A stretch of 64,000 bases of DNA from an uncultured Burkholderiales bacterium (GCA_964584305.1 CAZOZL010000002.1:211336-275335); one strand, 5' to 3'. Shown: positions 18,639 through 49,058, numbered from the stretch's first letter. Notes: generated by a model from the letters alone, not told the origin. Numbers and translations are program-made.

Positions 18639-18663
18639 TGTTTATAGTGCTTGGTTTGTTTTA

Positions 18664-19995: not shown

Positions 19996-20024
19996 TCGGC
20001 TTCTCTACTTATTATTATTAGTTC

Positions 20025-21071: not shown

Positions 21072-21097
21072 TATAATTTTAGTCTGTTAGTTGTAAA

Positions 21098-22039: not shown

Positions 22040-22057
22040 TATAATTAATTTTTTATT

Positions 22058-22960: not shown

Positions 22961-22975
22961 TAAATAACTTAAAAA

Positions 22976-23728: not shown

Positions 23729-23730
23729 TG

Positions 23731-24954
23731 TTATCTATATCTGTTTTGCAACAGATTATAAATATAATCTGTTGATTTCTCCAAAGTATTCTCTCGCAAT
23801 AATGCTTGGGAGTTTTTTACTAAAGTTTTTTGGAGTTCACTATTACCATCTAATTCTCTAATTTTTACCAATAAGTCTTCTAAGCTATTTTGCTCAAATA
23901 TTAATGCCTCTTGATTAGTGAAAAATTGTCTTATACCTAAATAACTAACACAAATGGTTGGTATACCAGCAGCAAAACCTTCCCAAAGAGTACGTGGATA
24001 CCCTTCATTTGTGCAGGTATTGAATATGTAAATATCAGATTGATTAAAAACCTCTACCTTTTTGTTATTATGTATCTCGCCTCTAAAGTTTATATAATCT
24101 TTTACATCTAACTCATCAATAACACTGTTTATCAAACTCATGTAAGAAGGGACTGCTGTTCCTCCATATACGTCTAGTATAGCTTCACGCCCACCTTTTC
24201 TAAGTTTGCTAACTGCTTTTATTAGCAATTCAACATTCTTTTCAGGGTCTAACCTGCTATAAAATATTAAGCGCAAAGGTCCCTCGTGTTGTTCCCTATC
24301 TCTATAAACAATCTCGCTATCTCTAATTAAACCTTTTGATATAAGATTAAACCTGTTGTCTTTAATTTTATAAGACGACTCCATTGCGGGATTATTACCC
24401 AAAACAATATAACTATACTTGTTTACCAATGCACGTGTTAAGTAGTTGGTAGTATATATACGCAATACGTTTTTAAAGAACTCTCTAATAGCTCCATTTA
24501 AACCCGCAGGGCGATAAATTTCTTTTGGTGATTTGGTTAGTATACCTACCAATAAGCTCGCAATTTTACAATTGGGGTGTACTGCTTTTGCCACAGGGTT
24601 TTGTTGTGGCGTAGGCCCTTGTATTATAATATAATCAAGGTTTTTAGTGCCGTTATAAATGGCTTTTTTATCTAAGCCAATTCCAAAACCTTTAATACGA
24701 TGAGGTGCTTGCTTTCCTATATCTACTATTGAAGATTTTGCAGTTAGTATATGGTAAGATTTGGGTACATTATCACTACTTATAGTACCTCCATTATTTA
24801 AAAAACAAGTAAACTCTTCGCACAACTCTCCAAAACGTTCAGCCCAAATAGCTATATCAAAAGCAACATATTGTTGCCCCTTTTCGTCAGTTAAAAAATG
24901 TCCGTGATTAAAGTAGCCTATTTTCATTTTTTTAGTTACCTGATAGCCATTCAT
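23731..24954 (-). CDS. GT4 glycosyltransferase
   Basis: C-terminal NEGYPRTLWEGFAAGIP (EX7E motif). Confidence 0.75.
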   Translation of the reverse strand: MNGYQVTKKMKIGYFNHGHFLTDEKGQQYVAFDIAIWAERFGELCEEFTCFLNNGGTISSDNVPKSYHILTAKSSIVDIGKQAPHRIKGFGIGLDKKAIYNGTKNLDYIIIQGPTPQQNPVAKAVHPNCKIASLLVGILTKSPKEIYRPAGLNGAIREFFKNVLRIYTTNYLTRALVNKYSYIVLGNNPAMESSYKIKDNRFNLISKGLIRDSEIVYRDREQHEGPLRLIFYSRLDPEKNVELLIKAVSKLRKGGREAILDVYGGTAVPSYMSLINSVIDELDVKDYINFRGEIHNNKKVEVFNQSDIYIFNTCTNEGYPRTLWEGFAAGIPTICVSYLGIRQFFTNQEALIFEQNSLEDLLVKIRELDGNSELQKTLVKNSQALLRENTLEKSTDYIYNLLQNRYR

Positions 24955-26644
24955 AGTTATCGTTGTTCCTCAAAACTCTTGTTGCTATTTTTTCAAACCC
25001 CGCTTCACTAATCCTTTTTTGTAATGCAACATTCCAGTCGTTAGTATAAATCAGCACATCACTGTTTTGCCTTACTGAAATTATATTTAATAAATATGAG
25101 TAGTATCCTTTACCTCGTTGGCTTTTTGCTGTAAAGCAGTCTATTATCACTTGTGGATTTCTCAGTTCTGTTTTTTTAGGTATCTCCTCATCCTTAGGAG
25201 ATGTCATCCAAGCAATACAGGCTATTGTTTTATCTTTATTATACAAACAATAAGGTTTTTTTTTGTTCTCTGCAATTGTTGTTAGGTAGTATTGTCTTTT
25301 AGCAGTTGTTAGCACAATCTCTTTTTCAAAAAAGTCCATAATATCATATACGGCACCTGTACCATAAGTAACATCGTTACAGGGTTTTACTACTATTTTA
25401 TTAGGTATAAATTTATAAAAATGCTGTGTATCGGATTTTGTTATTACCTTTATTTTTTTAGAAATAAATTTCTTATCTGTTCTTAACTCGTTAAGTATAT
25501 ATCTCAATTTACTCTTACAGGTACTAACTTTTAACTTTATTTTTGAGATAGTAACTCGAACTTTATTGTTTAAAAAGTTTATTAGGCGTGGGCTTTTTTG
25601 ATAATGGTAATCTATTACCCCTTTTATGTATGTTTTAGAGTATATCGATTTTGCTCCATATAACCTCACTAAGTGAGGGTCTTTATTTGCGTACTCATAC
25701 TTATAGGATTCCATGCCTACACCAAAATCAAGAACTAATAGATTATTATCTGCCATCCATTTTGATAGCTCAAATATCAACAGCTTATTAATTCTGTATT
25801 TCAAATAAATTCCGTTAACAGAATATGCTATTTGATGGTATATTACTGAGTCCTTTGTTTTGAGACAGATAGCCATTGATGTTGGTTTATCATCCACATC
25901 TAAAGAAAAAAGAATACACGACTTTTCTTTAAGCCATCTTTTAACTTTTTCATTTAATTGCTCTCTTTGTGCCTTGCTATTATAGATTGATGGTGTTGAA
26001 GTTGGATTCCATCTAATCTCATGATACATGAAGAAGTAATCCATCCAATTATTAAGTCTCTCCTCATCAAAGCCTTCGACAACACTCGCTTTGTAAGCGT
26101 GTTCACGCCTAAACTTGTTTGAATAATTTCTTGTATTACTCTTATTAAAGATACCTCTAAACTCTTTCTCTTCGGCAGTACTACGCAATATTTTTACAAA
26201 GAGATTTTTCCATGATTTTACAAATACTGTTTTAAAATTTAACTCATTTACTGCCTTTATTACAAGAAATAAATATGTATTTGCAGTACACAATTTTTTA
26301 AACTCAATATTTTGAGGATTAATCTGTGTTAGTGCCTCTTTAATGGCTTGATACTTTTGGGTAATTGAGACCGAATACAAAAAAGGAAATTGTATTGAAT
26401 CTGACATTGCCTCTCCAGCTATGTGTAATGTAGTACCTATAAAAGTAAATGGTATGGCTCCTATTAGTAAGTTTTCATTATAAATATAAACTATGCTTAG
26501 TGCTCTTATATTCTCATAGCTTAGTTTTAGAATATCAGCGGAAATAAATGGATTTCTTGTGTTTGATTTATCCCAAATTTTGGAATAGTTAGCCCAATCT
26601 TCTTCACTAAGCTGATTTATAATCTTGATATTAATATCACTCAC
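24932..26644 (-). CDS. Didomain acyltransferase: N-terminal FemAB/CelD-like (Acetyltransf_6/BioF2-like) domain plus C-terminal classical GNAT
   Basis: About 340 aa with FemAB-like GNAT-duplication architecture. The C-terminal 150 aa carries the motif A RGKGYYSYLL. Confidence 0.55.
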   Translation of the reverse strand: MSDINIKIINQLSEEDWANYSKIWDKSNTRNPFISADILKLSYENIRALSIVYIYNENLLIGAIPFTFIGTTLHIAGEAMSDSIQFPFLYSVSITQKYQAIKEALTQINPQNIEFKKLCTANTYLFLVIKAVNELNFKTVFVKSWKNLFVKILRSTAEEKEFRGIFNKSNTRNYSNKFRREHAYKASVVEGFDEERLNNWMDYFFMYHEIRWNPTSTPSIYNSKAQREQLNEKVKRWLKEKSCILFSLDVDDKPTSMAICLKTKDSVIYHQIAYSVNGIYLKYRINKLLIFELSKWMADNNLLVLDFGVGMESYKYEYANKDPHLVRLYGAKSIYSKTYIKGVIDYHYQKSPRLINFLNNKVRVTISKIKLKVSTCKSKLRYILNELRTDKKFISKKIKVITKSDTQHFYKFIPNKIVVKPCNDVTYGTGAVYDIMDFFEKEIVLTTAKRQYYLTTIAENKKKPYCLYNKDKTIACIAWMTSPKDEEIPKKTELRNPQVIIDCFTAKSQRGKGYYSYLLNIISVRQNSDVLIYTNDWNVALQKRISEAGFEKIATRVLRNNDNYEWLSGN

Positions 26645-27052: not shown

Positions 27053-28267
27053 CTACTTTACTGGATAAAAATATATCTGTTTTCTAAGTGTGTAGGTAGC
27101 TGCAATGGCTATTAAAAACCATGCAAATACATTTACAATAGCAGAAATAACATACATATGTATGCACATGCCTACAAAGCCCCATAAGGCAGCCTTTTTA
27201 AAGTTATTTATCTTGTTATAATTTTTTACAAAAAAGAAAATAGTTGACGCCAGTAATAAAATCAATGGCACAAACAACATTAATCCTCCTTCTGCCAATA
27301 TAGATATATAAGAATTATGTGCACTTTTTTGACTAAGATCTTTGTACTTAAGCACTTCACCTCCCTCAAAATCTAAATCAATATCTACATCGTATGCCAC
27401 AAAGTTATTAAGCCCAATACCTGTGATGGGATCCTCCATAAAAATTTGAAGACCTTTGTTTACCATTGCCACACGCGTTAGATAAGATTGATCTTTAGTG
27501 GTCAAATCTTCAGTTTCGTATAATATTGAGTGTATCCTACCGTTAGTACTTTTTATCATAGATTCTACAAAAACCGTATTAAAAGCTATTGTCATAAACA
27601 TTACAGCTACTAAAGAGACTGCTATACTTCTAGCTCTAACTTCAAGGAAAAAGAAAAGCATAAACGCTTCAAGACTAACCAATAATAGCCCTGCTCTTCT
27701 ACCTTGTAACAGCATTGCCATTAGTATAATCAACAACAATGTTATCGCCTGAAACCTTTTTTTATTACTTAAATAGTAATAGATAGCAATAGGACTAAAA
27801 CATATCATTAGAAATGCAAAACCATTCCCGTAAAGGGGTCGTAAAAATGGTATAAAAGCTAGGTAATCTTGGATAAAGTAATATACTACCGAGGATATAA
27901 TGCCATATGTTATTCCTTTATATATAACATACATATTTACCCTAATTAGGTAAGATGAAAATATAACTAGTATAGTACACCAATATATATAGTTGGGCAA
28001 TACTGTTAGTGCTCTTTTCAGTGAACCATCGAACTTTTTAACATCAAGCACTGAAACTATGGCTCCAATAACTATTAAAGCTGCATAAGTAGTTACTTTA
28101 GAGAACTTTAACTTTATATTTTTAGAGAAGAGATTATAAAACAACAATATCATTAAGAAAAACGATACGTTTTGCCCAAGTAGGAGAAAAGCAGGGAATA
28201 CCATAAAATAAGAAAGCCAAAAAAGCACTTTATTATTGCTAGTATCTATTACTTGTTCTTGAATCAT
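27053..28267 (-). CDS. wzy: O-antigen polymerase/ligase family membrane protein (Wzy-like)
   Basis: Multi-TM protein with a periplasmic loop carrying the GRRAGLL and SAHNSYISILAEGG (Wzy_C-type) motifs. Confidence 0.65.
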   Translation of the reverse strand: MIQEQVIDTSNNKVLFWLSYFMVFPAFLLLGQNVSFFLMILLFYNLFSKNIKLKFSKVTTYAALIVIGAIVSVLDVKKFDGSLKRALTVLPNYIYWCTILVIFSSYLIRVNMYVIYKGITYGIISSVVYYFIQDYLAFIPFLRPLYGNGFAFLMICFSPIAIYYYLSNKKRFQAITLLLIILMAMLLQGRRAGLLLVSLEAFMLFFFLEVRARSIAVSLVAVMFMTIAFNTVFVESMIKSTNGRIHSILYETEDLTTKDQSYLTRVAMVNKGLQIFMEDPITGIGLNNFVAYDVDIDLDFEGGEVLKYKDLSQKSAHNSYISILAEGGLMLFVPLILLLASTIFFFVKNYNKINNFKKAALWGFVGMCIHMYVISAIVNVFAWFLIAIAATYTLRKQIYFYPVK

Positions 28268-28290: not shown

Positions 28291-29328
28291 TTACTCAGAA
28301 AAATTTTTCTTAAATGGCTTCAGAAGATAGTAGCTTAGTTTACCTAACATATTTAAGAGTACTAATATATATGTTGTTTTACTACTAAACATCTTATTAG
28401 GATAACTTGCAAAACCTAAGCACAAAATTCTAAATGCATACATAGGAGCACCTATTTTTAGTTTACGGAATGCTTGTTTATGGATTACATTTTTTATGTA
28501 TGCTCCTTGCAATACATCATCACTAATGGAGGCACTTCTTAGCATTTCGGTGCTTCTTTCAAAAGTACTGCGATACTCATCTATATAGTACTTTAATGCC
28601 CCACTTTTATTTTGTTGTGCCTGTTGATTATTTTGATGCCAGCGGTATCCAAAAAAAGGAAAATCGATAAAATAACAGTACTCCGTTTCTGCTAATACCT
28701 TCCAATGAAACCATTTATCAGGATTGTACAAGCGCGAGCCGCTATAACCACCTACTTTTTCATAAATCTCTTTGCTATATATTGTTGCCGCAAAATATAA
28801 CGGTCCCATAAAGGTTTTCATACTTCTTTTCAGTAGATCGCCAGATTTTATCTTATATACTTTGTGTCCAATTTGTTCGGTTAGTTTAGTATCAATATCG
28901 CTTTCAAACCAAAGTTTTCTTGGAGGAGAAATATACCCTAAATAATTTCCATCAGCGTCTATTTTTTGACAAGTCGTACCTGCCATAGTAAAATTATCCC
29001 CTTCAATATCTTTTAATTTCTTAAAAACCTCTAACGCGCCAGCATTCATCACATCGTCCGATGAAAGAAGTATCATATACTCTCCAGTTGCATTTTGAGA
29101 CACGGCATCTAAATTTCCGGCAAAACCTAAATTAGTGATATTTTGATGTGCCTTAACTCTTGAGTCTTTGTTAACGTATTCTTGAATTACTTCCCAAGAG
29201 TTATCTGTGCTTTTATTATCAGATATCAATACCTCAAAATTATCGTACTCCTGCTTTAATACCCCATTAATCGTGTCGCCAATGTAGTTGCCGTAATTAA
29301 AGTTTGGTATACATACAGATATTTTCAT
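28291..29328 (-). CDS. Family 2 glycosyltransferase
   Basis: ISVCIPNFNYGNYI...ISDNKSTD...SSDD GT-A motifs. Confidence 0.85.
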   Translation of the reverse strand: MKISVCIPNFNYGNYIGDTINGVLKQEYDNFEVLISDNKSTDNSWEVIQEYVNKDSRVKAHQNITNLGFAGNLDAVSQNATGEYMILLSSDDVMNAGALEVFKKLKDIEGDNFTMAGTTCQKIDADGNYLGYISPPRKLWFESDIDTKLTEQIGHKVYKIKSGDLLKRSMKTFMGPLYFAATIYSKEIYEKVGGYSGSRLYNPDKWFHWKVLAETEYCYFIDFPFFGYRWHQNNQQAQQNKSGALKYYIDEYRSTFERSTEMLRSASISDDVLQGAYIKNVIHKQAFRKLKIGAPMYAFRILCLGFASYPNKMFSSKTTYILVLLNMLGKLSYYLLKPFKKNFSE

Positions 29329-30050
29329 TATTTTTGGTTGAGGTATTCTTCAAAGGCAAGTTTTGCTTCGGGCGTACCCATATCCCAAATTTCTTGAGCC
29401 ATTGAAAGTGTTATATGTTTGTTTTTTTGTATGTATCTATTGTAAAGTGGCATTATATAATACTCACCTTTAACGGTTTTTTTACTGGCTATTAAGTTTT
29501 GTGCTTCTTGCTGGAAGTACTTTGTATCGCTAAAATAGTAAAGCCCTGTACTGGCATTGTCTGATATGCGTTGTTTTTCTGCTACTTCTATAACATTTCC
29601 CACTTCATTTGTTTTGGCAAAACTCCAACGGTTTCCAAGCAATTTGGCTACTGATATTATGCCTTCACAGTTTTGGGGGCTTTCTTTAATCTCATTCCCT
29701 ATATCGCTTTTTATATAAGTATCTGATGCAGCAATAAGCAGCCCCTCCCCTTCAACAAAAAATTTTTTGGCTTCTAATACTGTACATAACTGCCCTTCTG
29801 TAACATCGTCTAGTAAAACTAATTCAAAATTGACCGTGATATTGGTTTCTATTATCTGCCTTAAATTGTATTTTTCTTGGTGTTCTTTCAGAGCTACAAA
29901 TACCAATTTAGTACGAGGTATGTTTGCTACTGACTGATAGGCATGGAAAAGCATTGGCTTCCCTGCCACCTCTATTAGTGGTTTAGGAGTTGTAAACCCT
30001 ACATTGGCAAACCTGCTCCCCCTACCTGCTAGTGGTATTACAATTATCAC
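29328..30050 (-). CDS. Sugar-/alcohol-phosphate nucleotidyltransferase (GlmU/RmlA/LicC/IspD-like fold)
   Basis: N-terminal IIVIPLAGRGSRF (G-x-G-x-R pyrophosphorylase motif), 240 aa. Confidence 0.75.
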   Translation of the reverse strand: MIIVIPLAGRGSRFANVGFTTPKPLIEVAGKPMLFHAYQSVANIPRTKLVFVALKEHQEKYNLRQIIETNITVNFELVLLDDVTEGQLCTVLEAKKFFVEGEGLLIAASDTYIKSDIGNEIKESPQNCEGIISVAKLLGNRWSFAKTNEVGNVIEVAEKQRISDNASTGLYYFSDTKYFQQEAQNLIASKKTVKGEYYIMPLYNRYIQKNKHITLSMAQEIWDMGTPEAKLAFEEYLNQK

Positions 30051-30409
30051 TTATCTTTAGCTAATTCTTGAAGTTTTTTTTCGCTTAAACTATCCCAACT
30101 TTCAAACCTAAGCGCCCTATCGTCTATATATATATCTCCATTGGGTTTCCCAAAGTATATCTCATCGTACTCAATATTGTACTTGTCCAACCATTCTAAT
30201 GTAATTTTTCCAACGTTTTTTACTACCTTTCCTAAGTTTGCCTGACAAGTAGCCATATTTCGAGCTGTTTGTATAATTACATAATGCCCTTGTTTTCTAA
30301 GCCCTGAAATAAACTCCGAAGCTCCTTCTTTGGGCAATACATCAGTGTAAGATTGATTTTTTTGTTTTAGGTAACAAATGGTACCGTCTAAATCTATAAT
30401 TAATCGCAT
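30047..30409 (-). CDS. Small HAD-superfamily phosphatase
   Basis: Motif I IIDLDGTI, motif II TAR, motif III/IV GKP...IYIDDR. 120 aa. Confidence 0.8.
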   Translation of the reverse strand: MRLIIDLDGTICYLKQKNQSYTDVLPKEGASEFISGLRKQGHYVIIQTARNMATCQANLGKVVKNVGKITLEWLDKYNIEYDEIYFGKPNGDIYIDDRALRFESWDSLSEKKLQELAKDK

Positions 30410-32025
30410 AGTTCGTTTAAAATAAAGAGCCCCTGTAAATACATCATTTTCTGTCTTTCAAAGTAATCAGCGTGATAAGGCAACATTGAAAGAAATAACA
30501 GCCCCTCTATCAGTTTTATTTCTTCTAAATTATAATTACTGTCTTGTATAAGTCTATCTAAATGTTTTCTTAATTCTGTCGTATTAGGGTTATTAAATAT
30601 TGAGAATTCAAACTTGTTCTCCACACTCTCCACATAAAATAAATCGCCTACTATATAGTCATAACTGCCAGATATACTATGCCTCATTTTGGCTATATCA
30701 TATCTAGAATCACCATATATCCCTTTTTGACCAAAGCTACCTCTTGGGTCTATCAATTTTACTATCTGATTTTTCACATCATATAATATGTTGGAAAGAC
30801 AATAATCACCATGTATAATAGTAAAGTTAGTAACCGAAGAGAGAGATTTTAGTTTATCATCCAGTTTCTGAAGCAGGAATTTATAATTATGAAATTTTTT
30901 GCCATTCGCTTCAATCACGTCGTAGTCCCAAACAGATTTCCAATATTCACTTTGTTCCTGTAATGCCAACACTCTGCTTTGGGTTTTAGTAATATACATA
31001 TTTTCAATACTTGAACTATCACTTGGCACTGAGTATTTTAAGAAAAGTTTGTGCACATCAAATAAATAACTCAGTATTGATTTCCAAACAGATAGGCTCA
31101 AGTCTCCATAAACGTATAATTCTGACAGTGGCGGATAGCCGTAAAATTCTTGGGTTATAGAAACTTTACCCTCTTTAAATTCTTTTCTAAGAATGCGAGG
31201 CGTAAGAACTTGTAGTTCTTCAGGAAGAAGTATGTACCAGTTTAACTCATCATATAACTTATCATTATTCTTACTAATTTTAGTTATAGTATTGTATAAA
31301 GGGTGAATAACTAACTGATTAAAGTGTCTAGGTCTTAGTAAAGATTTTTTTGAAACAATAAAAGTCTCCATATGTCCAAAATCAAACCAGTCTACAGCTT
31401 CAATTGTTTTGATTGACCTTTTTGTGCTATAGTTCAATAAAACACTACTAAGTTCTTTTTTTTGTAGTTTTTTAGCTACACTAACACTATTTCTCAGCAA
31501 GGCAGAATCTAAGAAACTATAATACCCTGCCAGCGCATTAAAGGTATCGCCTGGCAGTTTTTGTTTATCGGTTAATGCTGTTATTTTATTTTCACTATTT
31601 GTTTCTGCCACACACCAATTTTCGCTATCCACTACGTTTGATATATAAACAAAATCTTGGTCAATATTGTATTTGTCAAATATAAGGGTGTCCCCTAGTA
31701 TAATACGTGTTCCGTAGTTTGTTTCTATATGTTGCAATCCTGCTTCAAGTGAATCTATAATTGATTTTGGGTCTACTACTTTTACTATAGTAATATTTAG
31801 CCTTTTATAATAGTGTTTCTCTAATACTTCGCTAAGTTTGTTATTCTCCGCCCTAATTACTACGATTACATTTTCAATTTCTTTACTAATAAGGTCGTCT
31901 AAAATCCAACTAATAACGGGTTTTCCGTTTATAGGTATTGTTGCATTAGATTGATGGCTCCCTATTGGTAAGCGAGTATAATCTATTTTTCCTGCTGCTA
32001 AAAGTATTGTATTTTTAATACTCAT
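30400..32025 (-). CDS. Fused nucleotidyltransferase (N-term) / APH-ChoK-family phosphotransferase (C-term); LicC-LicA-like or MurU-AmgK-like bifunctional enzyme
   Basis: N-terminal ILLAAGKIDYTRLP nucleotidyltransferase motif. The C-terminal kinase catalytic loop IIHGDYCLSNILYD (HGD-x-x-x-x-N) and a downstream Asp motif are typical of choline/aminoglycoside-kinase-like enzymes. Confidence 0.65.
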   Translation of the reverse strand: MSIKNTILLAAGKIDYTRLPIGSHQSNATIPINGKPVISWILDDLISKEIENVIVVIRAENNKLSEVLEKHYYKRLNITIVKVVDPKSIIDSLEAGLQHIETNYGTRIILGDTLIFDKYNIDQDFVYISNVVDSENWCVAETNSENKITALTDKQKLPGDTFNALAGYYSFLDSALLRNSVSVAKKLQKKELSSVLLNYSTKRSIKTIEAVDWFDFGHMETFIVSKKSLLRPRHFNQLVIHPLYNTITKISKNNDKLYDELNWYILLPEELQVLTPRILRKEFKEGKVSITQEFYGYPPLSELYVYGDLSLSVWKSILSYLFDVHKLFLKYSVPSDSSSIENMYITKTQSRVLALQEQSEYWKSVWDYDVIEANGKKFHNYKFLLQKLDDKLKSLSSVTNFTIIHGDYCLSNILYDVKNQIVKLIDPRGSFGQKGIYGDSRYDIAKMRHSISGSYDYIVGDLFYVESVENKFEFSIFNNPNTTELRKHLDRLIQDSNYNLEEIKLIEGLLFLSMLPYHADYFERQKMMYLQGLFILNELCD

Positions 32026-33233
32026 ATTGTACTAAGAAGTTCTTGATAAATAGCCTCGATTTTTCGCATATTAGTAGCAGGGTTAAACTTTTCTTTTGCA
32101 TACGCTCTTCCCTTTTTGCCCATAGTTTTTCTCAACTCAGGATTATTTATTAATGTCTCTACTGCACCTACCAACTCGTCTATTTTTACAGGACTGTTAA
32201 TAATTGTACCTCCTTCGCCATTAACAACAATTGAAGATTTCCCACTATGCCCTTGTGCCACAACTACAGGAACCCCAAGAGCCTGAGCTTCTATAGGTTG
32301 ACGACCCATTACCGCATTATTATTAGCAACTATCAAAATATCTAAAGCCGCCATTAGTTGCAATGCGTCAGAACGAAAGCCTGTAATAATAACTCTATCT
32401 TTAAGGTTATTCTCTTCGAGGTAATCTTCGATGTATTTCTTTGGGCTTTTATGTACAACGTGTCCATCGTTTAAAAGGGTATTTCCATCCTCTAATATCT
32501 TACCCACTATTATAAATTTTTGTGGTTTATTAGAGTATTTCTTTGTGAGCTTATTTGCTAAATCAAGAAAATGCCAAGCTCCTTTTTTTGCATTTACCAC
32601 GCCTACCAGTCCAATTAAAATTTCATCAGCTTTAATACCCAAATCTTCTCTAGTAGAATCGCGTTTCGAAACCGCATTTTCTACCTGATTAGGATGCACT
32701 GTATTGTTTATTATATGCAAATTTTTATGGCTTTCTAATCCGTCAACCTCATCCTCAGAAATAGCAATAACAGCAGCGCTGTTTTTTAAAACAAAACCTG
32801 AGTTTAATGCCTTATTAATTGGTGACGCAGTTATAGCATAAGAACTTCTAGAATGTTGGACTACTGGTTTACCTAATTTCTTAAGGCTTATACCTGCATT
32901 AACGGCAGCTTTATCATTAATATGAATGATATCAGGATTGATTTCTTGTGATTTTTTATAAAAACCTAGATCAGAAAAAATTGCCTTGTATTGTTTAAAG
33001 CTTGCTCTATTATACCAATTTGGTCCTGGAAAAGTCCACAATCTAGGGTAAGTATATATGTGCACTTCTATGCCCAATTCTTCATACAATTGCCTTGCAG
33101 GCCCTTCTTCAGCTAAAAGCACAATGGGCTGATATATATTTCTATCTATAGCTGTAAGAAAATACTTTAAACTTATAGCAGACCCCGTTATCAAACCATC
33201 TTGATGAATATATAGAACTTTAATTTTTGCCAT
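32022..33233 (-). CDS. GT4-like glycosyltransferase (GT-B)
   Basis: Two-domain Rossmann GT-B architecture and a C-terminal nucleotide-binding region (VVVAQGHSGKSSIVVNGEGG). Confidence 0.7.
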   Translation of the reverse strand: MAKIKVLYIHQDGLITGSAISLKYFLTAIDRNIYQPIVLLAEEGPARQLYEELGIEVHIYTYPRLWTFPGPNWYNRASFKQYKAIFSDLGFYKKSQEINPDIIHINDKAAVNAGISLKKLGKPVVQHSRSSYAITASPINKALNSGFVLKNSAAVIAISEDEVDGLESHKNLHIINNTVHPNQVENAVSKRDSTREDLGIKADEILIGLVGVVNAKKGAWHFLDLANKLTKKYSNKPQKFIIVGKILEDGNTLLNDGHVVHKSPKKYIEDYLEENNLKDRVIITGFRSDALQLMAALDILIVANNNAVMGRQPIEAQALGVPVVVAQGHSGKSSIVVNGEGGTIINSPVKIDELVGAVETLINNPELRKTMGKKGRAYAKEKFNPATNMRKIEAIYQELLSTI

Positions 33234-34667
33234 TTAAGCTGAAATTTGTTGGGGTAATATCTCTGTATGAAATTTTTGAATATTTGAAAAATTAGCGAAA
33301 TACTGATTTACTATTTCTTTTGCTTCTAGGCTTATACTAAAATCATTCTCTAACAAATTATCTAGCGTTTTATATACTTTTTCTTTGGTTTTGCAATGGT
33401 AGGTTGCCCCTTGTTGGATAAATTTTGTTTCGTGATCAAACTCGCCTTTTAAATCGATGGTTATTACAGGTTTTTCCATATACATTGCTTCTAAAGCTGT
33501 TGTTGATGCCCCCGTTAATACAACATCTGCTATTTTAATCCAATCGAAAATGGTATCTCTTCCTTGAAAACGGTCGAACTTATATACTTCACTAAGCTCT
33601 TCTGTATCATCATTCCCAATAATATTGTCGTAGTACTCAATGTTATCTTTTCCGTGAAGTTTAAAAACAAAATAATACTCTTGCTTTTTATCAACTATCA
33701 AATTCTCAAGTACTTCTAATATAGCTTTATGGTGTTCTATGCTAACTGTATGACCTGGACCTGATAGTAGTACTAAAGCAATTTTCCTGTTTTTTGGTAA
33801 CGATTGAACTACTTTTTCTTGGAAAAAAGTAGTAGGCTTAGCTTTTAGCTGTTCTCTAAGGTATGGAGCTCCTAATGTTATAACTTTATCATTGTTAATG
33901 CCTTCTTTTTTTATTAATACATTACGCGCATAATCACCAAAAACAAGGTAGTTAGAACATATGTGTAAATTCTCTATAAACTCGTCGGACAAAAGCCCAT
34001 GCATTAAATAATAAGTCTTAATGTTTTTCTTATTACATATGTCAATAATCACTCTACCAGTAAAAAGTAAATCATTGAATATATACACAAATTTTATTTT
34101 GTTTACATCAGTAATTTTATAAATAAAGCGTTTTATAATTGAGTAGTTACTATAATTATCATTAAGCAATTGTGTTATATCATCTCTATTCTCAATTCCA
34201 ATTCGAAATTTAGAAATAACATTTTGTATTTGTACGGCTTTAAATTTTGATGCCCTAATTATAATTTTTGGAATAAACACAATATCGTCTGTTTTAAACC
34301 CCTCTGAAATTGATTTTATATATTTTTTTTTATTTGTTACAAATAATGGTTTAAATTTAATTATATCTTCCTTTAAAGGTATGGCGTGTTTTAAATGACT
34401 TGGCTCGTTTATGACAACTATGCAGCCAAATGATTTAGATTTTAGTACCTTATTAAGTCTTCTTTTTGCTAAGTAGAGTTCTTTAATTGAGAAAAGAACT
34501 CTTTTTATAAGACTAATCTCACTTTTAGCATAGGCTTCACGTCCTTTAACTAATAGGTAAATTTTTAAAAAAGAGTAGTTGATAAATTTCTTTAATTCAC
34601 TAACCTCTTTTTGTTGGTTTACTGAACGATAAAAATTTAAGAATTTCTCGTCTAAGCTATCCTGCAC
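33234..34667 (-). CDS. GT-B-fold transferase resembling the CDP-glycerol glycerophosphotransferase (TagB/TagF, Glyphos_transf) family; KpsC/KpsS-like alternative
   Basis: The C-terminal motif ADVVLTGASTTALEAMYMEKPVITI parallels the TagF LITDYSS...E...KP motif. Conserved His residues (LMHGLL, KLHGKD). Confidence 0.45.
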   Translation of the reverse strand: MQDSLDEKFLNFYRSVNQQKEVSELKKFINYSFLKIYLLVKGREAYAKSEISLIKRVLFSIKELYLAKRRLNKVLKSKSFGCIVVINEPSHLKHAIPLKEDIIKFKPLFVTNKKKYIKSISEGFKTDDIVFIPKIIIRASKFKAVQIQNVISKFRIGIENRDDITQLLNDNYSNYSIIKRFIYKITDVNKIKFVYIFNDLLFTGRVIIDICNKKNIKTYYLMHGLLSDEFIENLHICSNYLVFGDYARNVLIKKEGINNDKVITLGAPYLREQLKAKPTTFFQEKVVQSLPKNRKIALVLLSGPGHTVSIEHHKAILEVLENLIVDKKQEYYFVFKLHGKDNIEYYDNIIGNDDTEELSEVYKFDRFQGRDTIFDWIKIADVVLTGASTTALEAMYMEKPVITIDLKGEFDHETKFIQQGATYHCKTKEKVYKTLDNLLENDFSISLEAKEIVNQYFANFSNIQKFHTEILPQQISA

Positions 34668-34678
34668 TTAATTATCTA

Positions 34679-35326
34679 CTAAAATTCTATAAAAGTTTTT
34701 AAAATGCTAAGCCCATTTTCGCCACTCTTTTCTGGGTGAAATTGTGTGCCAAAAATATTATTTTTCTGAAAAGCAGAGGTGAATTTTATGTCCCCAAAAT
34801 TAGTATATGACAATACATCATTTTTATTGGCAATATTAGCAAAATAAGAGTGAACGAAGTACATGTACTGTGCCTCTTGATTGTTCTGAAAAATACTTTT
34901 TTCCCAAGTTTTACCAACTGGCATATTTATTTGTGCCCATGCTACATGTGGTATTTTATTCTTACTTCCATTACTATTAATGGAGTGGAGTTTTATTATT
35001 TCACCATCTACAAGGTTTAACCCCTCGGTTTCTTCTATTTCAAAACCCTTGGTTAGCATCATTTGCATACCTAAACATATTCCTATAATAGGTATTTGCT
35101 TTTTTGATAAAACATTTTTTATCTCATCAAAAAAACCACGCTTTTTTAACTCTGAAATTCCCAGCGGGAAAGCTCCTACGCCTGGTAATACGATTCTATC
35201 GGCAGTAGCAAGTTTCTTAGGGTCATCTGTAATCTCTGTCTCAACTCCAATATGCTCAAAGGCACGTGTTATACTTAGCAAATTACTAAGCCCATAATCT
35301 ACAATTACAACTTTTTTAGTCATCAA
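34679..35326 (-). CDS. HisH-like class I glutamine amidotransferase (WbuY/PseA-partner type, not histidine biosynthesis)
   Basis: Catalytic Cys in IIGICLGMQ and His-Glu in the FHPEKS region. It is adjacent to the HisF-like and amidotransferase genes in a glycan locus. Confidence 0.85.
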   Translation of the reverse strand: MMTKKVVIVDYGLSNLLSITRAFEHIGVETEITDDPKKLATADRIVLPGVGAFPLGISELKKRGFFDEIKNVLSKKQIPIIGICLGMQMMLTKGFEIEETEGLNLVDGEIIKLHSINSNGSKNKIPHVAWAQINMPVGKTWEKSIFQNNQEAQYMYFVHSYFANIANKNDVLSYTNFGDIKFTSAFQKNNIFGTQFHPEKSGENGLSILKTFIEF

Positions 35327-36068
35327 AACGTACGTTTAAATCATGTTCACGCGCTAGTTGTTTTACTTCGCGTATGGTTGTTTTCTTAAAGTGTAGTTGT
35401 TTAGCAATTGCAACTGCATCAGCATATTGGCAAGCATCAACAAAGTCCATAGGTTTGCCAAAACCGCCGCTTGCTATTATGGGAACATCTACAATTTGAG
35501 AGACTCCTTTAATCAAATCTATATCCATACCTTTTGAAGTGCCATCCATATCCACAGAGGTTAAGAATATTTCTCCTGCACCTCTATCAACCCCTTGTTT
35601 CACCCATTCCATAACATCAATATCGGTAGCTTCTCTTCCAGTATCAATATAGCACACCCATTTACCAGGGGCTGTTTTTTTGGCTTGAACACTAAGTACC
35701 ATACATTGATTACCAAAGTTTTTAGCAACCTCGGTAATCAATTCAGGATTTTTTATTGCGCCAGTATTTATAGCAACCTTATCCGCTCCACTTCGCAACA
35801 TTTCTTGTGCTTGTTGCACCGAACGTATTCCTCCACCTACTGTTATAGGTACGAATACATTACGGGTAGTTTCAGAGACTAACTCTTTCATAGAGTTACG
35901 GTTGTATAAACTGGAGATTGAGTCTATATATATAATTTCATCAATTCCACTCTTATAATAATCTATAAAGAAGGGTTTGGGGTCTCCCAAGAAACGCCAG
36001 CCTTCTAGGTGAATACCTTTAATAAGACGGTTTAATTTTATATCAAGTCTTGCAATGACTCTTTTCAT
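35316..36068 (-). CDS. HisF-like cyclase subunit (WbuZ type)
   Basis: TIM-barrel HisF motifs (RLDIK, VGGGIRS, DKVAINT, SGG). Confidence 0.85.
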   Translation of the reverse strand: MKRVIARLDIKLNRLIKGIHLEGWRFLGDPKPFFIDYYKSGIDEIIYIDSISSLYNRNSMKELVSETTRNVFVPITVGGGIRSVQQAQEMLRSGADKVAINTGAIKNPELITEVAKNFGNQCMVLSVQAKKTAPGKWVCYIDTGREATDIDVMEWVKQGVDRGAGEIFLTSVDMDGTSKGMDIDLIKGVSQIVDVPIIASGGFGKPMDFVDACQYADAVAIAKQLHFKKTTIREVKQLAREHDLNVRFDD

Positions 36069-36069
36069 A

Positions 36070-37275
36070 TTATACAGTAGGGAATTTCAGTTTCCACTCT
36101 CCATTTACTTTCTCCCAAAGATGAGGGGAACGTGATACGTCTATTACTTCCCAATATTTCTCTTCAGTAATACCCATATATTCTATTACATCTTGGAAGT
36201 ATTTTTTAGGAAATTCGCCATCGTATTTTTTCATTAAATCAACAGCCTCTTCACGGGTAATAAAGCCGTCACGAATATCACGGTTAGCATCATTCATTGC
36301 TCTACCTTGACCGAATTTAGCATACATAGTATAGTAGTGTTGTCCGTCTATTTTATCATCTAAACTAGCAAACTTGGTATATGTGCCTTCACTACGTCCA
36401 TCAGGGTTAGATTCGAAGCCAGTGTTTTCTTTAACATAGTAATAGTTCTCTTGTGGAGACCAGTTTACATAATAGCTAAAGAAGTGAACTTCCATATTAA
36501 TTTTACGTACTTCTTCTTCTAATAATGGCTTATATAAAAACAAATCATTATCAGTAATGTCATAATTTTTCTTTAAATCATTTATATGAACTCCACCAAA
36601 GTATATATCTTCATCGTAGGATTTTGTACTAAAATGGCTTATGTCCATTAGTGGAGAAAGATTTTCGCTAAAGTGATTGTGTGCCTCGGCTTGGTTTTCT
36701 CCATACATAATTAAAGGCACATCGTATTGTATTGCTGCACGTGGTGCAACATTCTTTTGCCCTATAATAAAAGGTTGGAATGGATTTACTAAGTTTTCGA
36801 AGGCTAAACGAGTGAGCAAGCGATGTACTTTACCATTTGGCGTAACTTTAATATTATCCAAACCAGCGTCAATCATATGATTAAAGTTTTTCCACCCAAT
36901 ATCTGTGTACATATGTGGTGCCCATGTAACAGTTAAAGGGTTCATGTTATACTTGTTTTTAAGCAAGTGTGCTACATAAATACTATCCTTACCACCTGAG
37001 GCTGGAACTACAACATCATAACGACCATCATTTCTACGGTGGCGGTCACAAAGTTCAGTCAATTCTTTTTCTCTATCATCCCAATTTATTTGGGTATTTT
37101 TATACTCAAACCACTTACAGGTATCGCATATACCATCCTCCCCAAAACCGACAGTATCAATAATAGTATCTACCTTTTTAAACTCACGTTGAGTACTTGG
37201 TCTTTGATTTGAGATTACACATTTTTTGCAAAAAATTACATTTTCGGGTAATCCGTGAAGTGTTGTTTGTGTCAT
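36070..37275 (-). CDS. N-acetyl sugar amidotransferase (WbuX/PseA/WbpG family, PP-loop ATP pyrophosphatase)
   Basis: PP-loop SGGKDS and N-terminal Cys cluster (CKKC...CDTC). It is co-located with the HisH/HisF homologues, as in E. coli O145 wbuXYZ and C. jejuni pseA-hisH-hisF. Confidence 0.8.
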   Translation of the reverse strand: MTQTTLHGLPENVIFCKKCVISNQRPSTQREFKKVDTIIDTVGFGEDGICDTCKWFEYKNTQINWDDREKELTELCDRHRRNDGRYDVVVPASGGKDSIYVAHLLKNKYNMNPLTVTWAPHMYTDIGWKNFNHMIDAGLDNIKVTPNGKVHRLLTRLAFENLVNPFQPFIIGQKNVAPRAAIQYDVPLIMYGENQAEAHNHFSENLSPLMDISHFSTKSYDEDIYFGGVHINDLKKNYDITDNDLFLYKPLLEEEVRKINMEVHFFSYYVNWSPQENYYYVKENTGFESNPDGRSEGTYTKFASLDDKIDGQHYYTMYAKFGQGRAMNDANRDIRDGFITREEAVDLMKKYDGEFPKKYFQDVIEYMGITEEKYWEVIDVSRSPHLWEKVNGEWKLKFPTV

Positions 37276-37279
37276 TTAT

Positions 37280-38185
37280 TTACTTTTTAATTAAAATACT
37301 TCTTGAGTTAATTGAAAGAATATCGGCAATTCTAGAATCCTTTAAAATAGGAACTCTATGAACATACCTAAATAAAAATTTAAATATATGCTTACCAGGA
37401 ACAGATACATTAAACCATTGTATTTTGTATCCGGTTTTAATTGCAATTTGTTTAAATTTTTTAATTGTTATACCATTTAAATCTTTATATGCTCTTATGT
37501 CTTTAACCTTTGTAGGTTTATCTACCAAACCAGGATAAATTTTATAAAGATTTTTATTCTCTTCTGCCAGCTTAATCATTACATTACAAATAGTTTTCTC
37601 ACTAAATAAAACATTTGCCCATGGTATTTTTAAACCATGTTTAAGATGTAAGCCATATTTGCTGTAGATTGATGGAAATGCTGGAACAAATAACATTCCA
37701 CCCGGTCTCAATATTTTATGTACTTGCTCCATAACTTTTGCAGGTTCCATAAAATGCTCAAATACATTGTCTGCAATTACGATGTCAAAGCTTTCTGGTT
37801 CAAAAGTCATCTCATAGGCATTCATCTCCAAATACTCCACAGGTAATCCTTTTTCAACTCCTATCTTGTCTTCTACCATCTTTTTGAACTTATTGGCTAC
37901 AGACAGGTTTTTTGTATTCAGGTCAATTGCTTTTACACTCTTAGCCATGTTTATGGCCATAAACATGGATATACCTCCGTGTCCACAGCCTATTTCTAAT
38001 ACCTCTTTATCTAAAAAATCTATATCCAAACCATGTTTAACTTTTCTAAAGTATTGATTATGTAAAGCATAATTCATTAGGTATTCATCCGACTCAAAAT
38101 CTTGTCCTGTATATTTATACTCTTTCTTATATGGGCTTGACCACATTTTAGAAAGCTTATATAAAATTATTTCGTTAAGCTTCAT
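37280..38185 (-). CDS. Class I SAM-dependent methyltransferase
   Basis: Motif I LEIGCGHGG and the acidic post-I residue (IDLN). Confidence 0.8.
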   Translation of the reverse strand: MKLNEIILYKLSKMWSSPYKKEYKYTGQDFESDEYLMNYALHNQYFRKVKHGLDIDFLDKEVLEIGCGHGGISMFMAINMAKSVKAIDLNTKNLSVANKFKKMVEDKIGVEKGLPVEYLEMNAYEMTFEPESFDIVIADNVFEHFMEPAKVMEQVHKILRPGGMLFVPAFPSIYSKYGLHLKHGLKIPWANVLFSEKTICNVMIKLAEENKNLYKIYPGLVDKPTKVKDIRAYKDLNGITIKKFKQIAIKTGYKIQWFNVSVPGKHIFKFLFRYVHRVPILKDSRIADILSINSRSILIKK

Positions 38186-38198
38186 ATTAGTCCTAAAA

Positions 38199-39638: not shown

Positions 39639-39645
39639 TTAGTTT

Positions 39646-41308: not shown

Positions 41309-41309
41309 C

Positions 41310-44526: not shown

Positions 44527-44544
44527 AATGCTAACCGCTTTTTG

Positions 44545-49048: not shown

Positions 49049-49058
49049 TTTTTTACTA

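What the first reader, a model, noticed from the sequence alone, without database searches (positions are those of the whole stretch)
29328..34667. Five-gene putative activated phospho-substituent module: TagF-like transferase, GT4, fused nucleotidyltransferase-kinase, HAD phosphatase, second nucleotidyltransferase
The 541-aa protein fuses a pyrophosphorylase-type nucleotidyltransferase to an APH/choline-kinase-like phosphotransferase (HGD catalytic loop). This is the same logic as LicC-LicA (phosphocholine) or MurU-AmgK (anomeric sugar kinase plus uridylyltransferase) fusions. It is flanked by a small HAD phosphatase, another nucleotidyltransferase and a GT-B protein with a TagB/TagF-like C-terminal motif. 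Together this looks like a route making an NDP-activated alcohol or sugar phosphate that is transferred as a phosphodiester substituent (phosphocholine, phosphoglycerol, phosphoethanolamine, or a rare sugar-1-P) onto the repeat unit. The identity of the activated moiety is not predictable from sequence alone.
Basis: inference. Interest (0 to 1): 0.6.

Follow-up and report, generated by a model that had tools for sequence, protein, structure and literature searches.

The report
Kinase–phosphatase–nucleotidyltransferase sugar-activation cassette
Three of the five genes, plus a glycosyltransferase just outside the interval, form a widespread but unnamed bacterial cassette that most likely turns a sugar phosphate into a nucleotide-activated furanose sugar (fructose or arabinose) for a surface polysaccharide, not a phosphate-linked substituent.

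Summary
The five minus-strand genes exist exactly as described. The 541-aa protein is a nucleotidyltransferase (NT)-like domain fused to an APH-type kinase with intact catalytic residues.

- **477-aa protein:** it is not TagF-like. It has no Glyphos_transf match, and it passes Pfam Epimerase_2.
- **Functional unit:** fusion, then a 120-aa HAD phosphatase, then a 240-aa canonical NT, usually followed by a GT2 (here 28291-29328). This trio is conserved across phyla and recurs as HAD-NT, kinase-HAD and NT-HAD-kinase gene fusions.
- **Closest characterised relatives:** phage AfhE (NT-kinase) and AfhF (HAD). They convert arabinofuranose-5-P to the 1,5-bisphosphate, then to the 1-phosphate, then to UDP-arabinofuranose.
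- **Closest bacterial relatives:** the EcbF/BcbF "capsule biosynthesis phosphatase" cassettes. In E. coli kps loci these have the same three partners. In Pasteurella multocida type B, bcbE and bcbG mutants lose the fructose side chain.
- **Difference from the phage enzymes:** the fused NT-like domain has lost the catalytic Lys (invariant Asn27), and its Arg is variable. A separate NT presumably does the chemistry.

Best reading: an NDP-furanose pathway with HldE/GmhB-like logic. The sugar is unproven: fructofuranose is favoured and arabinofuranose is possible.

The parts
30400..32025 (-). 541-aa fusion protein. The N-terminal NT-like domain is about residues 1-232 (nt 31330-32025). The C-terminal APH/choline-kinase-fold kinase domain is about residues 233-541 (nt 30403-31329).
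30047..30409 (-). 120-aa capless HAD phosphatase. Motifs: D6xD8, T48, K88, D96-D97.
   Evidence: Best NCBIfam family is TIGR01689 EcbF-BcbF 'capsule biosynthesis phosphatase', 83.6 bits, below the cutoff of 162. Best PDB match is 1XPJ, E 4e-20. The HAD motifs are invariant in alignment A2. The family profile matches the HAD of ara-phage LC53.
29328..30050 (-). 240-aa canonical sugar-phosphate nucleotidyltransferase (G9-R-G-S-R13, K23).
   Evidence: Pfam NTP_transferase 48 bits. Best PDB match is 4EVW, an NDP-sugar pyrophosphorylase from Vibrio cholerae RC9, E 8e-24. It is 33-34% identical to the NT next to BcbF-type HADs in Teredinibacter and E. coli. It occurs fused to the HAD in many proteins.
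28291..29328 (-). 345-aa GT2, the probable cognate transferase for the activated sugar. It lies outside the finding's interval.
   Evidence: A GT2 immediately follows the NT in the window, L005, L091 and L092. The window and L005 GT2 proteins are 35% identical over their full length, E 6e-61.
32022..33233 (-). 403-aa GT4 glycosyltransferase. It is a locus neighbour, not part of the conserved cassette.
   Evidence: Pfam Glycos_transf_1 91 bits. A GT4 sits immediately upstream of the fusion in L091 but not in L003, L005, L090 or L092.
33234..34667 (-). 477-aa GT-B protein of the Epimerase_2 / 'surface carbohydrate biosynthesis' type. It is not TagF-like. It is possibly the transferase for the nonulosonic acid made by the genes upstream.
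   Evidence: Pfam Epimerase_2 34.0 bits against a cutoff of 30.6. NCBIfam BFO_1060 GT domain 49.5 bits and TIGR04396 40.2 bits. No Glyphos_transf hit. It lies next to the NeuB/NeuC/CMP-synthetase and WbuXYZ genes.
27053..28267 (-). 404-aa Wzy-type polymerase directly after the GT2. This is locus context.
   Evidence: Wzy_C is recorded for this gene in L001 and L002. The same GT2-Wzy order occurs in L091 and L092.

Best explanation
The unit is a four-gene block on the minus strand: fusion (30400-32025), HAD (30047-30409), NT (29328-30050) and GT2 (28291-29328). It sits inside a large Wzx/Wzy polysaccharide locus. It most likely converts a furanose omega-phosphate from central metabolism into an NDP-furanose and adds it to the repeat unit.

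**Proposed steps**
1. The APH-fold kinase domain phosphorylates the anomeric hydroxyl. This would give D-fructofuranose-6-P -> fructose-2,6-bisphosphate, or D-arabinofuranose-5-P -> arabinofuranose-1,5-bisphosphate.
2. The small HAD removes the omega-phosphate, leaving the anomeric sugar phosphate.
3. The 240-aa canonical NT couples that phosphate to an NTP.
4. The GT2 transfers the sugar.

The NT-like domain fused to the kinase has lost the catalytic Lys, and in many members the Arg. It is probably non-catalytic, serving substrate or product binding, channelling or regulation.

**Shown here:** gene order, domain identities, intact kinase, HAD and NT catalytic motifs, homology to phage AfhE/AfhF and to EcbF/BcbF-type cassettes, and recurrent gene fusions.

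**Inferred:** substrate identity, order of steps, nucleotide used, role of the degenerate domain, and GT2 as the acceptor-side enzyme. Fructose is favoured over arabinose.
For: **Conserved trio**
- The order fusion -> 120-aa HAD -> about 240-aa NT is found in Thermochlorobacter, Bacteroidota and Anaerolineae contigs.
- The related kinase -> HAD -> NT arrangement is found in nearly all of 80 species-level genomes from many phyla. There, 533 candidates were confirmed as relatives.

**Rosetta-stone fusions**
- Among 150 cluster representatives there are HAD-NT, NT-HAD, kinase-HAD, HAD-kinase and NT-HAD-kinase proteins.

**Characterised homologs**
- PMC13326640 reports, citing work on phage HY126, that AfhE is a bifunctional D-arabinose-5-P kinase and UDP-arabinose pyrophosphorylase.
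- The same paper reports AfhF as a Mg-dependent phosphatase acting on the 1,5-bisphosphate. Its phage HAD models hit 1XPJ, which is also the best PDB match of the window HAD.
- The fusion family aligns over both domains with the AfhE-like protein of ara-phage LC53, and the HAD family aligns with its HAD.

**Bacterial anchor**
- In E. coli kps loci, a HAD that passes the TIGR01689 cutoff (200 bits) lies between an NT homolog (33% identity, E 5e-36) and a 525-aa homolog of the fusion (hhalign 100%, E 1e-46).
- P. multocida BcbF names that family. bcbE and bcbG mutants lose the capsule's fructose branch (PMC13552107).

**Catalytic residues**
- Kinase, HAD and NT motifs are intact.

**Split of labour**
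- Phage fusions that lack a separate NT keep GxGxxR and PK.
- Every bacterial fusion examined has a degenerate motif and comes with a separate canonical NT.

**Fructose over arabinose**
- No arabinose-5-P isomerase gene lies near any bacterial cassette. In ara-phage LC53 one lies just upstream of the AfhE-like gene.
- The cassette occurs in lineages I expect to lack Kdo (Chloroflexi, Firmicutes), from general knowledge.
- The window HAD is closer to the BcbF model (83.6 bits) than the LC53 phage HAD is (51 bits).
Against: - No biochemical data exist for this clade.
- The window HAD scores below the TIGR01689 cutoff.
- I could not obtain the P. multocida BcbE and BcbG sequences. Their equivalence to the NT and the fusion is inferred from E. 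coli loci with a bona fide BcbF-family HAD.
- The only enzymatically characterised homologs act on arabinose-5-P, and a Bacteroidota host would be expected to have that metabolite because it makes Kdo (from general knowledge).
- The API search used one phage query by tblastn and could miss divergent SIS proteins or genes located elsewhere in the genome.
- The fused NT-like domain is very strongly conserved: S26-N27, G34-K35-P36-V37-I38, G111-D112-T113, D215-F216-G217. It may therefore keep an unrecognised catalytic role.
- The order of the phosphatase and nucleotidyl-transfer steps is not determined.
Confidence: 0.7

Rival explanations
1. The cassette makes NDP-D-arabinofuranose, exactly as phage AfhE/AfhF do. 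It would use arabinose-5-phosphate supplied by the host's Kdo pathway isomerase (KdsD).
For: - AfhE and AfhF are the only biochemically characterised homologs (PMC13326640).
- Homology covers both domains of the fusion and the HAD.
- E. coli kps loci with the cassette carry KpsF/GutQ, an arabinose-5-P isomerase.
- A Gram-negative Bacteroidota host is expected to have KdsD (general knowledge).
Against: - No API-like gene lies within the flanks of the window or of about 90 bacterial loci, including Firmicutes and Chloroflexi. Ara-phage LC53 carries one just upstream of its AfhE-like gene.
- The nearest genetically studied bacterial cassette family (BcbE/F/G) is tied to fructose, not arabinose (PMC13552107).
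- The phage proteins are only distant relatives: window HAD against 9IQW is E 1e-4, and the fusion against T-even-type phages is E about 1e-4 by tblastn.
Confidence: 0.2
2. A Lic-like route activates an alcohol or sugar phosphate (choline, glycerol, ethanolamine). A TagF-like enzyme then transfers it as a phosphodiester substituent.
For: - NT plus choline-kinase fusions are, from memory, known elsewhere.
Against: - The 477-aa protein has no Glyphos_transf match and passes Epimerase_2. It is not a conserved neighbour.
- A Lic-type route has no place for the phosphatase, yet the HAD is fused to the NT or the kinase in many proteins.
- The partner NT is of the sugar-1-phosphate type. Its best matches are RmlA-long and archaeal GlmU, with PDB 4EVW as the closest structure.
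- Characterised homologs yield a UDP-sugar used by glycosyltransferases (PMC13326640).
- No LicD-type or TagF-type transferase was seen among the scanned neighbours.
Confidence: 0.04
3. The cassette is a mutase-independent supply route for a common amino-sugar nucleotide needed by the adjacent nonulosonic-acid pathway. An example would be GlcNAc-6-P -> GlcNAc-1-P -> NDP-GlcNAc, analogous to MupP/AmgK/MurU or PtmE.
For: - The block lies about 5 kb downstream of the NeuB/NeuC/CMP-synthetase and WbuXYZ genes.
- The NTs show weak matches to MurU and GlmU models.
Against: - Most loci with the cassette have no nonulosonic-acid genes. In L005 it stands alone with a GT2. In L006 and L007 it sits with GtrA, GT2 and an LPG-synthase-type membrane protein.
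- Scores to the MurU and GlmU models are far below their cutoffs.
- NeuC-type pathways start from UDP-GlcNAc, which cells already make (general knowledge).
Confidence: 0.05

Closest known systems
Phage AfhE/AfhF UDP-D-arabinofuranose pathway (E. coli phage HY126; RB69 gp52:53 and gp51; DLP3 gp82 and gp81; Serratia phage LC53), as described in PMC13326640
   Same: - An NT domain fused N-terminally to an APH-fold kinase, followed by an overlapping small 1XPJ-like HAD gene.
- Sequence homology over both domains of the fusion and over the HAD.
- The logic sugar-omega-P -> bisphosphate -> sugar-1-P -> NDP-sugar.
   Different: - Phage NTDs keep the canonical GxGxxR and PK motifs, and no separate NT gene is present.
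- The bacterial fusion has Asn at the Lys position, and a separate canonical 240-aa NT is always present.
- Ara-phage LC53 carries an adjacent arabinose-5-P isomerase. The bacterial loci do not.
- The product goes to a polysaccharide rather than to DNA.
EcbF/BcbF 'capsule biosynthesis phosphatase' cassettes (TIGR01689): P. multocida bcbE-bcbF-bcbG and E. coli kps region-2 NT-HAD-525-aa genes
   Same: - The same three partners: a canonical NT of about 240 aa, a small HAD, and a degenerate-NT/kinase protein.
- A role in surface polysaccharide synthesis.
- Genetic link to a furanose (fructose) side chain in P. multocida (PMC13552107).
   Different: - The gene order in E. coli is NT-HAD-fusion. 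Here it is fusion-HAD-NT.
- The window HAD lacks the 'PWxG' insertion and scores 83.6 bits against a cutoff of 162.
- Those loci are ABC-transporter (kps) capsules. This one is a Wzx/Wzy locus in a low-GC genome that looks like Bacteroidota.
HldE/GmhB ADP-heptose pathway
   Same: - A bifunctional kinase/nucleotidyltransferase works with a HAD-IIIA-type phosphatase.
- An anomeric kinase acts on a sugar omega-phosphate, the distal phosphate is removed, and the sugar-1-P is nucleotidylated (established knowledge).
   Different: - Different folds. HldE uses a ribokinase-family kinase and a cytidylyltransferase-family NT. Here the kinase is APH-fold and the NT is RmlA-like.
- No sequence match to HldE or GmhB models was reported.
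MupP/AmgK/MurU peptidoglycan-recycling route and LicA/LicC
   Same: - An APH-fold small-molecule kinase works with an RmlA-like/MurU-like NT.
- The MupP route also includes a HAD phosphatase (established knowledge).
   Different: - Only weak sub-threshold matches were found: MurU 27.7 bits against a cutoff of 250.
- The genomic context is different.
- In the Lic route no phosphatase is involved.

Membership tests
Phage AfhE/AfhF-type NDP-furanose pathway | NT domain fused to a C-terminal APH-fold kinase | tested here: met
Phage AfhE/AfhF-type NDP-furanose pathway | Adjacent small 1XPJ-like HAD phosphatase | tested here: met
   The window HAD overlaps the fusion's stop codon. Its best PDB match is 1XPJ, E 4e-20. 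The A2 profile against the LC53 HAD gives 98.4%.
Phage AfhE/AfhF-type NDP-furanose pathway | Fused NT domain carries canonical catalytic Arg (GxGxxR) and Lys (PK), as expected for a pyrophosphorylase | tested here: not met
   The Lys position is an invariant Asn27. The Arg is present in only 26 of 58 family members. The phage proteins keep both residues.
Phage AfhE/AfhF-type NDP-furanose pathway | Arabinose-5-phosphate isomerase encoded alongside | tested here: not met
   tblastn with the LC53 API finds nothing in the window or in about 90 bacterial loci.
Phage AfhE/AfhF-type NDP-furanose pathway | Substrate is D-arabinose-5-P and product is UDP-Araf | not testable with these tools
   This needs enzyme assays.
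TIGR01689 EcbF-BcbF capsule biosynthesis phosphatase | Score at or above the curated cutoff (162 bits) | tested here: not met
   83.6 bits, E 1e-23. It is the best family but below the cutoff. The E. coli kps HAD scores 200.1 bits.
TIGR01689 EcbF-BcbF capsule biosynthesis phosphatase | HAD catalytic motifs I-IV present | tested here: met
   D6xD8, T48, K88 and D96-D97. The equivalent columns are invariant in A2.
TIGR01689 EcbF-BcbF capsule biosynthesis phosphatase | Flanked by a canonical NT of about 240 aa and a degenerate-NT/kinase protein | tested here: met
   The same partners are found in E. coli L093 and L096 and in the window.
TagB/TagF CDP-glycerol glycerophosphotransferase (the 477-aa protein) | Match to Glyphos_transf (PF04464) or the TagF family | tested here: not met
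   There is no such hit at E <= 0.01. Epimerase_2 scores 34.0 bits against a cutoff of 30.6, with further hits to BFO_1060 GT and TIGR04396.
LicC-LicA phosphocholine activation | Choline-kinase and CTP:phosphocholine cytidylyltransferase family membership, with a LicD-type transferase | tested here: not met
HldE/GmhB ADP-heptose pathway | Ribokinase-family kinase, cytidylyltransferase-family NT and a GmhB equivalog | tested here: not met
   No HldE or GmhB family matches were reported. The folds are APH-like and RmlA-like. Only the pathway logic is shared.
APH/choline-kinase-fold small-molecule kinases | Catalytic loop HxDxxxxN, Mg-binding Asp, and Lys-Glu pair | tested here: met

The most novel reading that the evidence does not exclude
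The cassette is the missing bacterial route for activating a ketose. An APH-fold kinase would make fructose-2,6-bisphosphate from fructose-6-P. The BcbF-type HAD would trim it to fructofuranose-2-phosphate. The 240-aa NT would then make an NDP-beta-D-fructofuranose donor. This would explain the fructose branches of P. multocida B/E. From memory, it would also cover E. coli K4, K11 and K52, H. influenzae type e and C. jejuni HS:1. It would mean that proteins called 'fructosyltransferase' from knockout phenotypes, such as KfoE, may in fact be kinases. It would also reveal a pseudo-nucleotidyltransferase domain that regulates or channels the pathway.
Probability: 0.35. Interest if true: 0.8.

Novelty: new variant of a known kind. 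Interest (0 to 1): 0.55.

Why it matters
**Annotation gap.** The cassette is present in hundreds of bacterial species: 533 candidate stretches in the one-genome-per-species collection were confirmed as relatives. It also occurs in many phages, in a giant-virus metagenome and in bdelloid rotifers. Its annotation is nevertheless poor. Labels include 'dTDP-glucose pyrophosphorylase', 'glycosyltransferase family 2', 'phosphoheptose isomerase' and 'hypothetical'.

**An open question in glycobiology.** In the literature I could search, no activated donor for fructofuranose residues in bacterial polysaccharides has been defined. The 2026 P. multocida study assigns bcbE and bcbG to fructose addition without giving a mechanism.

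**What the link provides.** Connecting these genes to the phage AfhE/AfhF chemistry yields a directly testable three-enzyme pathway. It would improve annotation of capsule and O-antigen loci. It could also supply enzymes for making rare NDP-furanoses.

Tried and rejected
**Interpretations rejected**
- TagF-like reading of the 477-aa protein: rejected on Pfam and NCBIfam results.
- A five-gene module: rejected. Only the fusion, HAD and NT are conserved together, usually with the downstream GT2.
- A supply route for the adjacent nonulosonic-acid pathway: rejected, because most cassette loci lack such genes.

**Searches that did not deliver**
- P. multocida BcbE/F/G or E. coli K4 KfoD/E sequences. 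The three protein searches returned only the top 120 hits and none was from Pasteurellaceae. The genome scan returned the 80 loci most similar to the query, with no Pasteurellaceae. The older papers are not held. The gap was bridged indirectly through E. coli kps loci found by a low-GC DNA query.
- Literature on NDP-fructose or fructose-2-phosphate in bacteria: nothing relevant.
- The V. cholerae wav cluster and fructose in the LPS core: two full-text searches were unproductive. This lead (1XPJ and 4EVW as homologs, WavE genes beside the cassette in L003) rests on memory and was not used as evidence.

**Methods that were uninformative**

Full report
**1. The observation**

Five minus-strand ORFs occupy 29328-34667 exactly as reported. 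They are 240, 120, 541, 403 and 477 aa. Neighbouring genes overlap by 1-10 nt or abut, as expected for one translationally coupled operon.

Pfam and NCBIfam confirm the domain calls:
- NTP_transferase in the 240-aa protein.
- A HAD fold in the 120-aa protein.
- NTP_transferase at residues 7-224, plus a weak APH(3') match at 391-454, in the 541-aa protein.
- GT4 in the 403-aa protein.

The identical 541-aa protein occurs on JGI metagenome contigs. Hundreds of full-length homologs of about 540 aa exist in Bacteroidota, Chlorobi-like, Rhodothermales and Chloroflexi assemblies. Almost all are unnamed.

In an alignment of 58 homologs the kinase catalytic loop H405-G-D407...N412, the Mg-binding D426 and a K249/E260 pair are invariant. 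An AlphaFold model (pLDDT 89.8, pTM 0.84) shows two domains:

**2. What does not hold**

The 477-aa 'TagF-like' protein has no Glyphos_transf match. It passes Pfam Epimerase_2 (34.0 bits against 30.6). It also hits the BFO_1060 glycosyltransferase domain and the TIGR04396 'surface carbohydrate biosynthesis protein' model.

The protein sits directly downstream of a nonulosonic-acid and acetamidino module:
- HisH/WbuZ/WbuX-type amidotransferase genes at 34679-37275.
- A CMP-nonulosonate synthetase-like gene at 39646-40365.
- NeuC at 41310-42467.
- NeuB at 42467-43468.

It is more plausibly a GT-B transferase for that sugar.

The whole region from about 6000 to 49900 is one minus-strand Wzx/Wzy polysaccharide locus. 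It carries Wza- and Wzc-like genes at 46559-49859 and a Wzy at 27053-28267.

**3. The true unit**

Contexts of distant homologs show which genes travel together.
- A Thermochlorobacter genome, a 5.4-Mb genome that looks like Bacteroidota, and an Anaerolineae MAG all have fusion -> 120-aa HAD -> about 240-aa NT with overlapping ends.
- GT4 and the 477-aa gene are not conserved partners.
- A GT2 directly follows the NT in the window, L005, L091 and L092. The window and L005 GT2 proteins are 35% identical end to end, E 6e-61.
- In L005 these four genes stand alone, outside any larger polysaccharide locus.

An exhaustive representative search with the HAD found 2165 relatives. Local BLAST of the best 150 revealed repeated Rosetta-stone fusions:
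- HAD-NT and NT-HAD, about 340-385 aa.
- Kinase-HAD and HAD-kinase.
- NT-HAD-kinase, about 620-720 aa.
- One protein with degenerate NT, kinase and HAD in that order (773 aa).

NT, phosphatase and kinase therefore belong to one pathway.

**4. A second, larger clade with the same trio**

The representative closest to the TIGR01689 model (P0304, 149 bits) led to Paenibacillus and Teredinibacter loci. It also led to 80 species-level genomes from Proteobacteria, Firmicutes, Cyanobacteria, Chloroflexi, Synergistetes and others. In that scan, 533 candidates were confirmed as relatives.

In almost every one of these loci the HAD is preceded by a 480-565-aa kinase protein. It is followed, directly or within a few kb, by an NT of about 240-250 aa. 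GtrA, a DPM/GtrB-like GT2 and an LPG-synthase-type membrane protein usually lie upstream.

The 487-aa Teredinibacter protein matches the kinase half of the window family (hhalign 99.9%, E 7.5e-31). Its NT is 34% identical to the window NT, E 1e-37.

**5. Link to characterised enzymes**

The best PDB relatives are structural-genomics entries: 4EVW for the NT (E 8e-24) and 1XPJ for the HAD (E 4e-20).

A full-text search for 1XPJ led to PMC13326640 (NAR 2026). That paper describes how phages with arabinosylated 5-hydroxycytosine DNA make UDP-arabinofuranose:
- An arabinose-5-P isomerase supplies the substrate.
- AfhE is an N-terminal pyrophosphorylase fused to a C-terminal APH-like kinase. It converts Araf-5-P to Araf-1,5-P2, and Araf-1-P to UDP-Araf.
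- AfhF is a Mg-dependent HAD whose models hit 1XPJ. It converts Araf-1,5-P2 to Araf-1-P.
- The biochemical demonstration is attributed to work on phage HY126.

The window proteins have phage homologs by tblastn: 272 records for the fusion and 187 for the HAD. In Serratia phage LC53, named in that paper as an ara-5hoC phage, the gene order is API - small ORF - 564-aa NT/kinase - overlapping 121-aa HAD. The window family aligns with the 564-aa protein across both domains (98.6%, E 1e-15). The HAD family aligns with the phage HAD (98.4%).

**6. Link to bacterial capsules**

The HAD's best NCBIfam family is EcbF-BcbF 'capsule biosynthesis phosphatase', named after P. multocida capsule genes.

PMC13552107 (Infect Immun 2026) shows the following:
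- The type B capsule is a GlcNAc-ManNAcA chain with fructose and glycine side chains.
- bcbE and bcbG mutants lose fructose.
- BcbE, BcbF and BcbG had been predicted to add fructose.
- No enzymology is given.

I could not fetch those sequences. A low-GC DNA query did uncover E. coli kps capsule loci. In them, a HAD that passes the TIGR01689 cutoff (200 bits) lies between two genes:
- A 238-248-aa NT, mis-annotated as 'glycosyltransferase family 2', 33% identical to the window NT, E 5e-36.
- A 525-aa protein that is a near full-length homolog of the window fusion: hhalign 100%, E 1e-46, window residues 59-537.

The bona fide BcbF family therefore has the same three partners as the window.

**7. 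A consistent difference from the phage enzymes**

Aligned to RmlA, the fused N-domain has an invariant Asn27 at the position of the catalytic Lys. The GxGxR Arg is present in only 26 of 58 members. The GD(T) and DFG-like sugar and metal motifs are retained.

The E. coli 525-aa proteins and the Firmicutes and Synergistetes versions are even more degenerate. Every one of these bacterial loci has a separate NT with canonical GRGSR...PK.

The phage fusions of LC53 and Enterococcus phage 9183 keep GxGxxR and PK and have no separate NT.

**8. Mechanism proposed**

1. The kinase phosphorylates the anomeric OH of a furanose omega-phosphate.
2. The HAD removes the omega-phosphate.
3. The NT forms the NDP-sugar.
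4. The GT2 adds the sugar to the repeat unit.

This is the logic of HldE/GmhB and of AfhE/AfhF.

The sugar is not determined. D-Araf-5-P and D-Fruf-6-P have the same ring configuration, because fructose is D-arabino-hexulose. One enzyme family could plausibly serve both.

I favour fructose, or at least a universally available substrate, for the bacterial cassettes, for three reasons:
- No API-like gene lies near any of about 90 bacterial loci, whereas ara-phage LC53 has one just upstream.
- The cassette occurs in lineages I expect to lack Kdo, such as Chloroflexi and Firmicutes.
- The only genetic phenotype in bacteria is loss of fructose.

Arabinofuranose remains a serious alternative for this host, which should make arabinose-5-P for Kdo.

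**9. Novelty**

The general scheme is known from phages (2025-2026) and, in logic, from ADP-heptose synthesis. This is a bacterial three-protein variant with a degenerate fused NT domain. It is widespread, essentially unannotated, and may be the long-sought activation route for fructofuranose in capsules.

I rate it a new variant of a known kind, of moderate-to-good interest.

Noticed in passing
window 34679-44526 (minus strand): A nonulosonic-acid module lies upstream of the finding. It comprises NeuB-like (42467-43468), NeuC (41310-42467), a PGDH-like 2-hydroxyacid dehydrogenase (40346-41308), a PseF-like CMP-synthetase (39646-40365), a flippase-like gene, a methyltransferase, and a WbuX/WbuZ/HisH amidotransferase trio (34679-37275). 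This suggests an acetamidino- and possibly methyl- or glyceroyl-modified nonulosonic acid.
   Followed up: partly
window 43465-45837: A TviB-like UDP-GlcNAc 6-dehydrogenase (572 bits, just under the equivalog cutoff of 592) sits next to a TviC-like epimerase. This implies UDP-GalNAcA (or GlcNAcA) as another building block of the same polysaccharide.
   Followed up: no
window 16679-26644: This stretch holds two formyltransferase-like genes (22976-23728, 16679-17431), a polysaccharide deacetylase (22058-22960), an AMP-dependent ligase (18664-19995) and a 570-aa protein with an Acetyltransf_6 GNAT domain (24932-26644). Together they suggest unusual N-acyl or N-formyl amino sugars or aminoacyl decoration. 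The deacetylase and formyltransferase pair recurs in L091.
   Followed up: no
P0296/P0524 and P0337 clusters: Triple-fusion NT-HAD-kinase proteins of about 620-700 aa occur in a giant-virus-like 'viral metagenome' contig (254 kb) and in the bdelloid rotifer Adineta steineri. The same pathway therefore appears to exist in eukaryote-associated genomes, possibly through horizontal transfer.
   Followed up: partly
L088 (Enterococcus phage 9183, 29756-31731) and Synechococcus phage S-SKS1: Phages of hosts without Kdo carry the HAD (annotated 'phosphoheptose isomerase') and a canonical NT-kinase fusion next to thymidylate-synthase-like and dUTPase genes. No arabinose-5-P isomerase lies nearby. This hints at DNA glycosylation with a sugar other than arabinose, or at a different source of the substrate.
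   Followed up: partly
L093, L095, L096 and L094 (E. coli complete genomes): RefSeq annotates the roughly 240-aa nucleotidyltransferase of the cassette as 'glycosyltransferase family 2 protein' and the 525-aa degenerate-NT/kinase as 'hypothetical protein'. One E. coli lineage carries the cassette between gnd and ugd, together with a GtrB-like GT2, an LPG-synthase-domain protein, a 926-aa protein and GtrA. That arrangement suggests an O-antigen side-chain modification through a polyprenyl-phosphate sugar.
   Followed up: partly
L003 12758-16676 (Thermochlorobacter): Here the cassette is followed by two WavE-family genes (PF07507, named after the V. cholerae core-oligosaccharide cluster) and a GT9 heptosyltransferase-like gene. 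The PDB homolog 4EVW of the NT is from V. cholerae, and from memory so is 1XPJ, the HAD homolog. From memory, the V. cholerae LPS core contains fructose. I could not verify this lead.
   Followed up: partly
L092 8616-9692: In one Bacteroidia relative an Acyl_transf_3 gene is inserted between the fusion and the HAD. This suggests O-acylation associated with the cassette's sugar.
   Followed up: no
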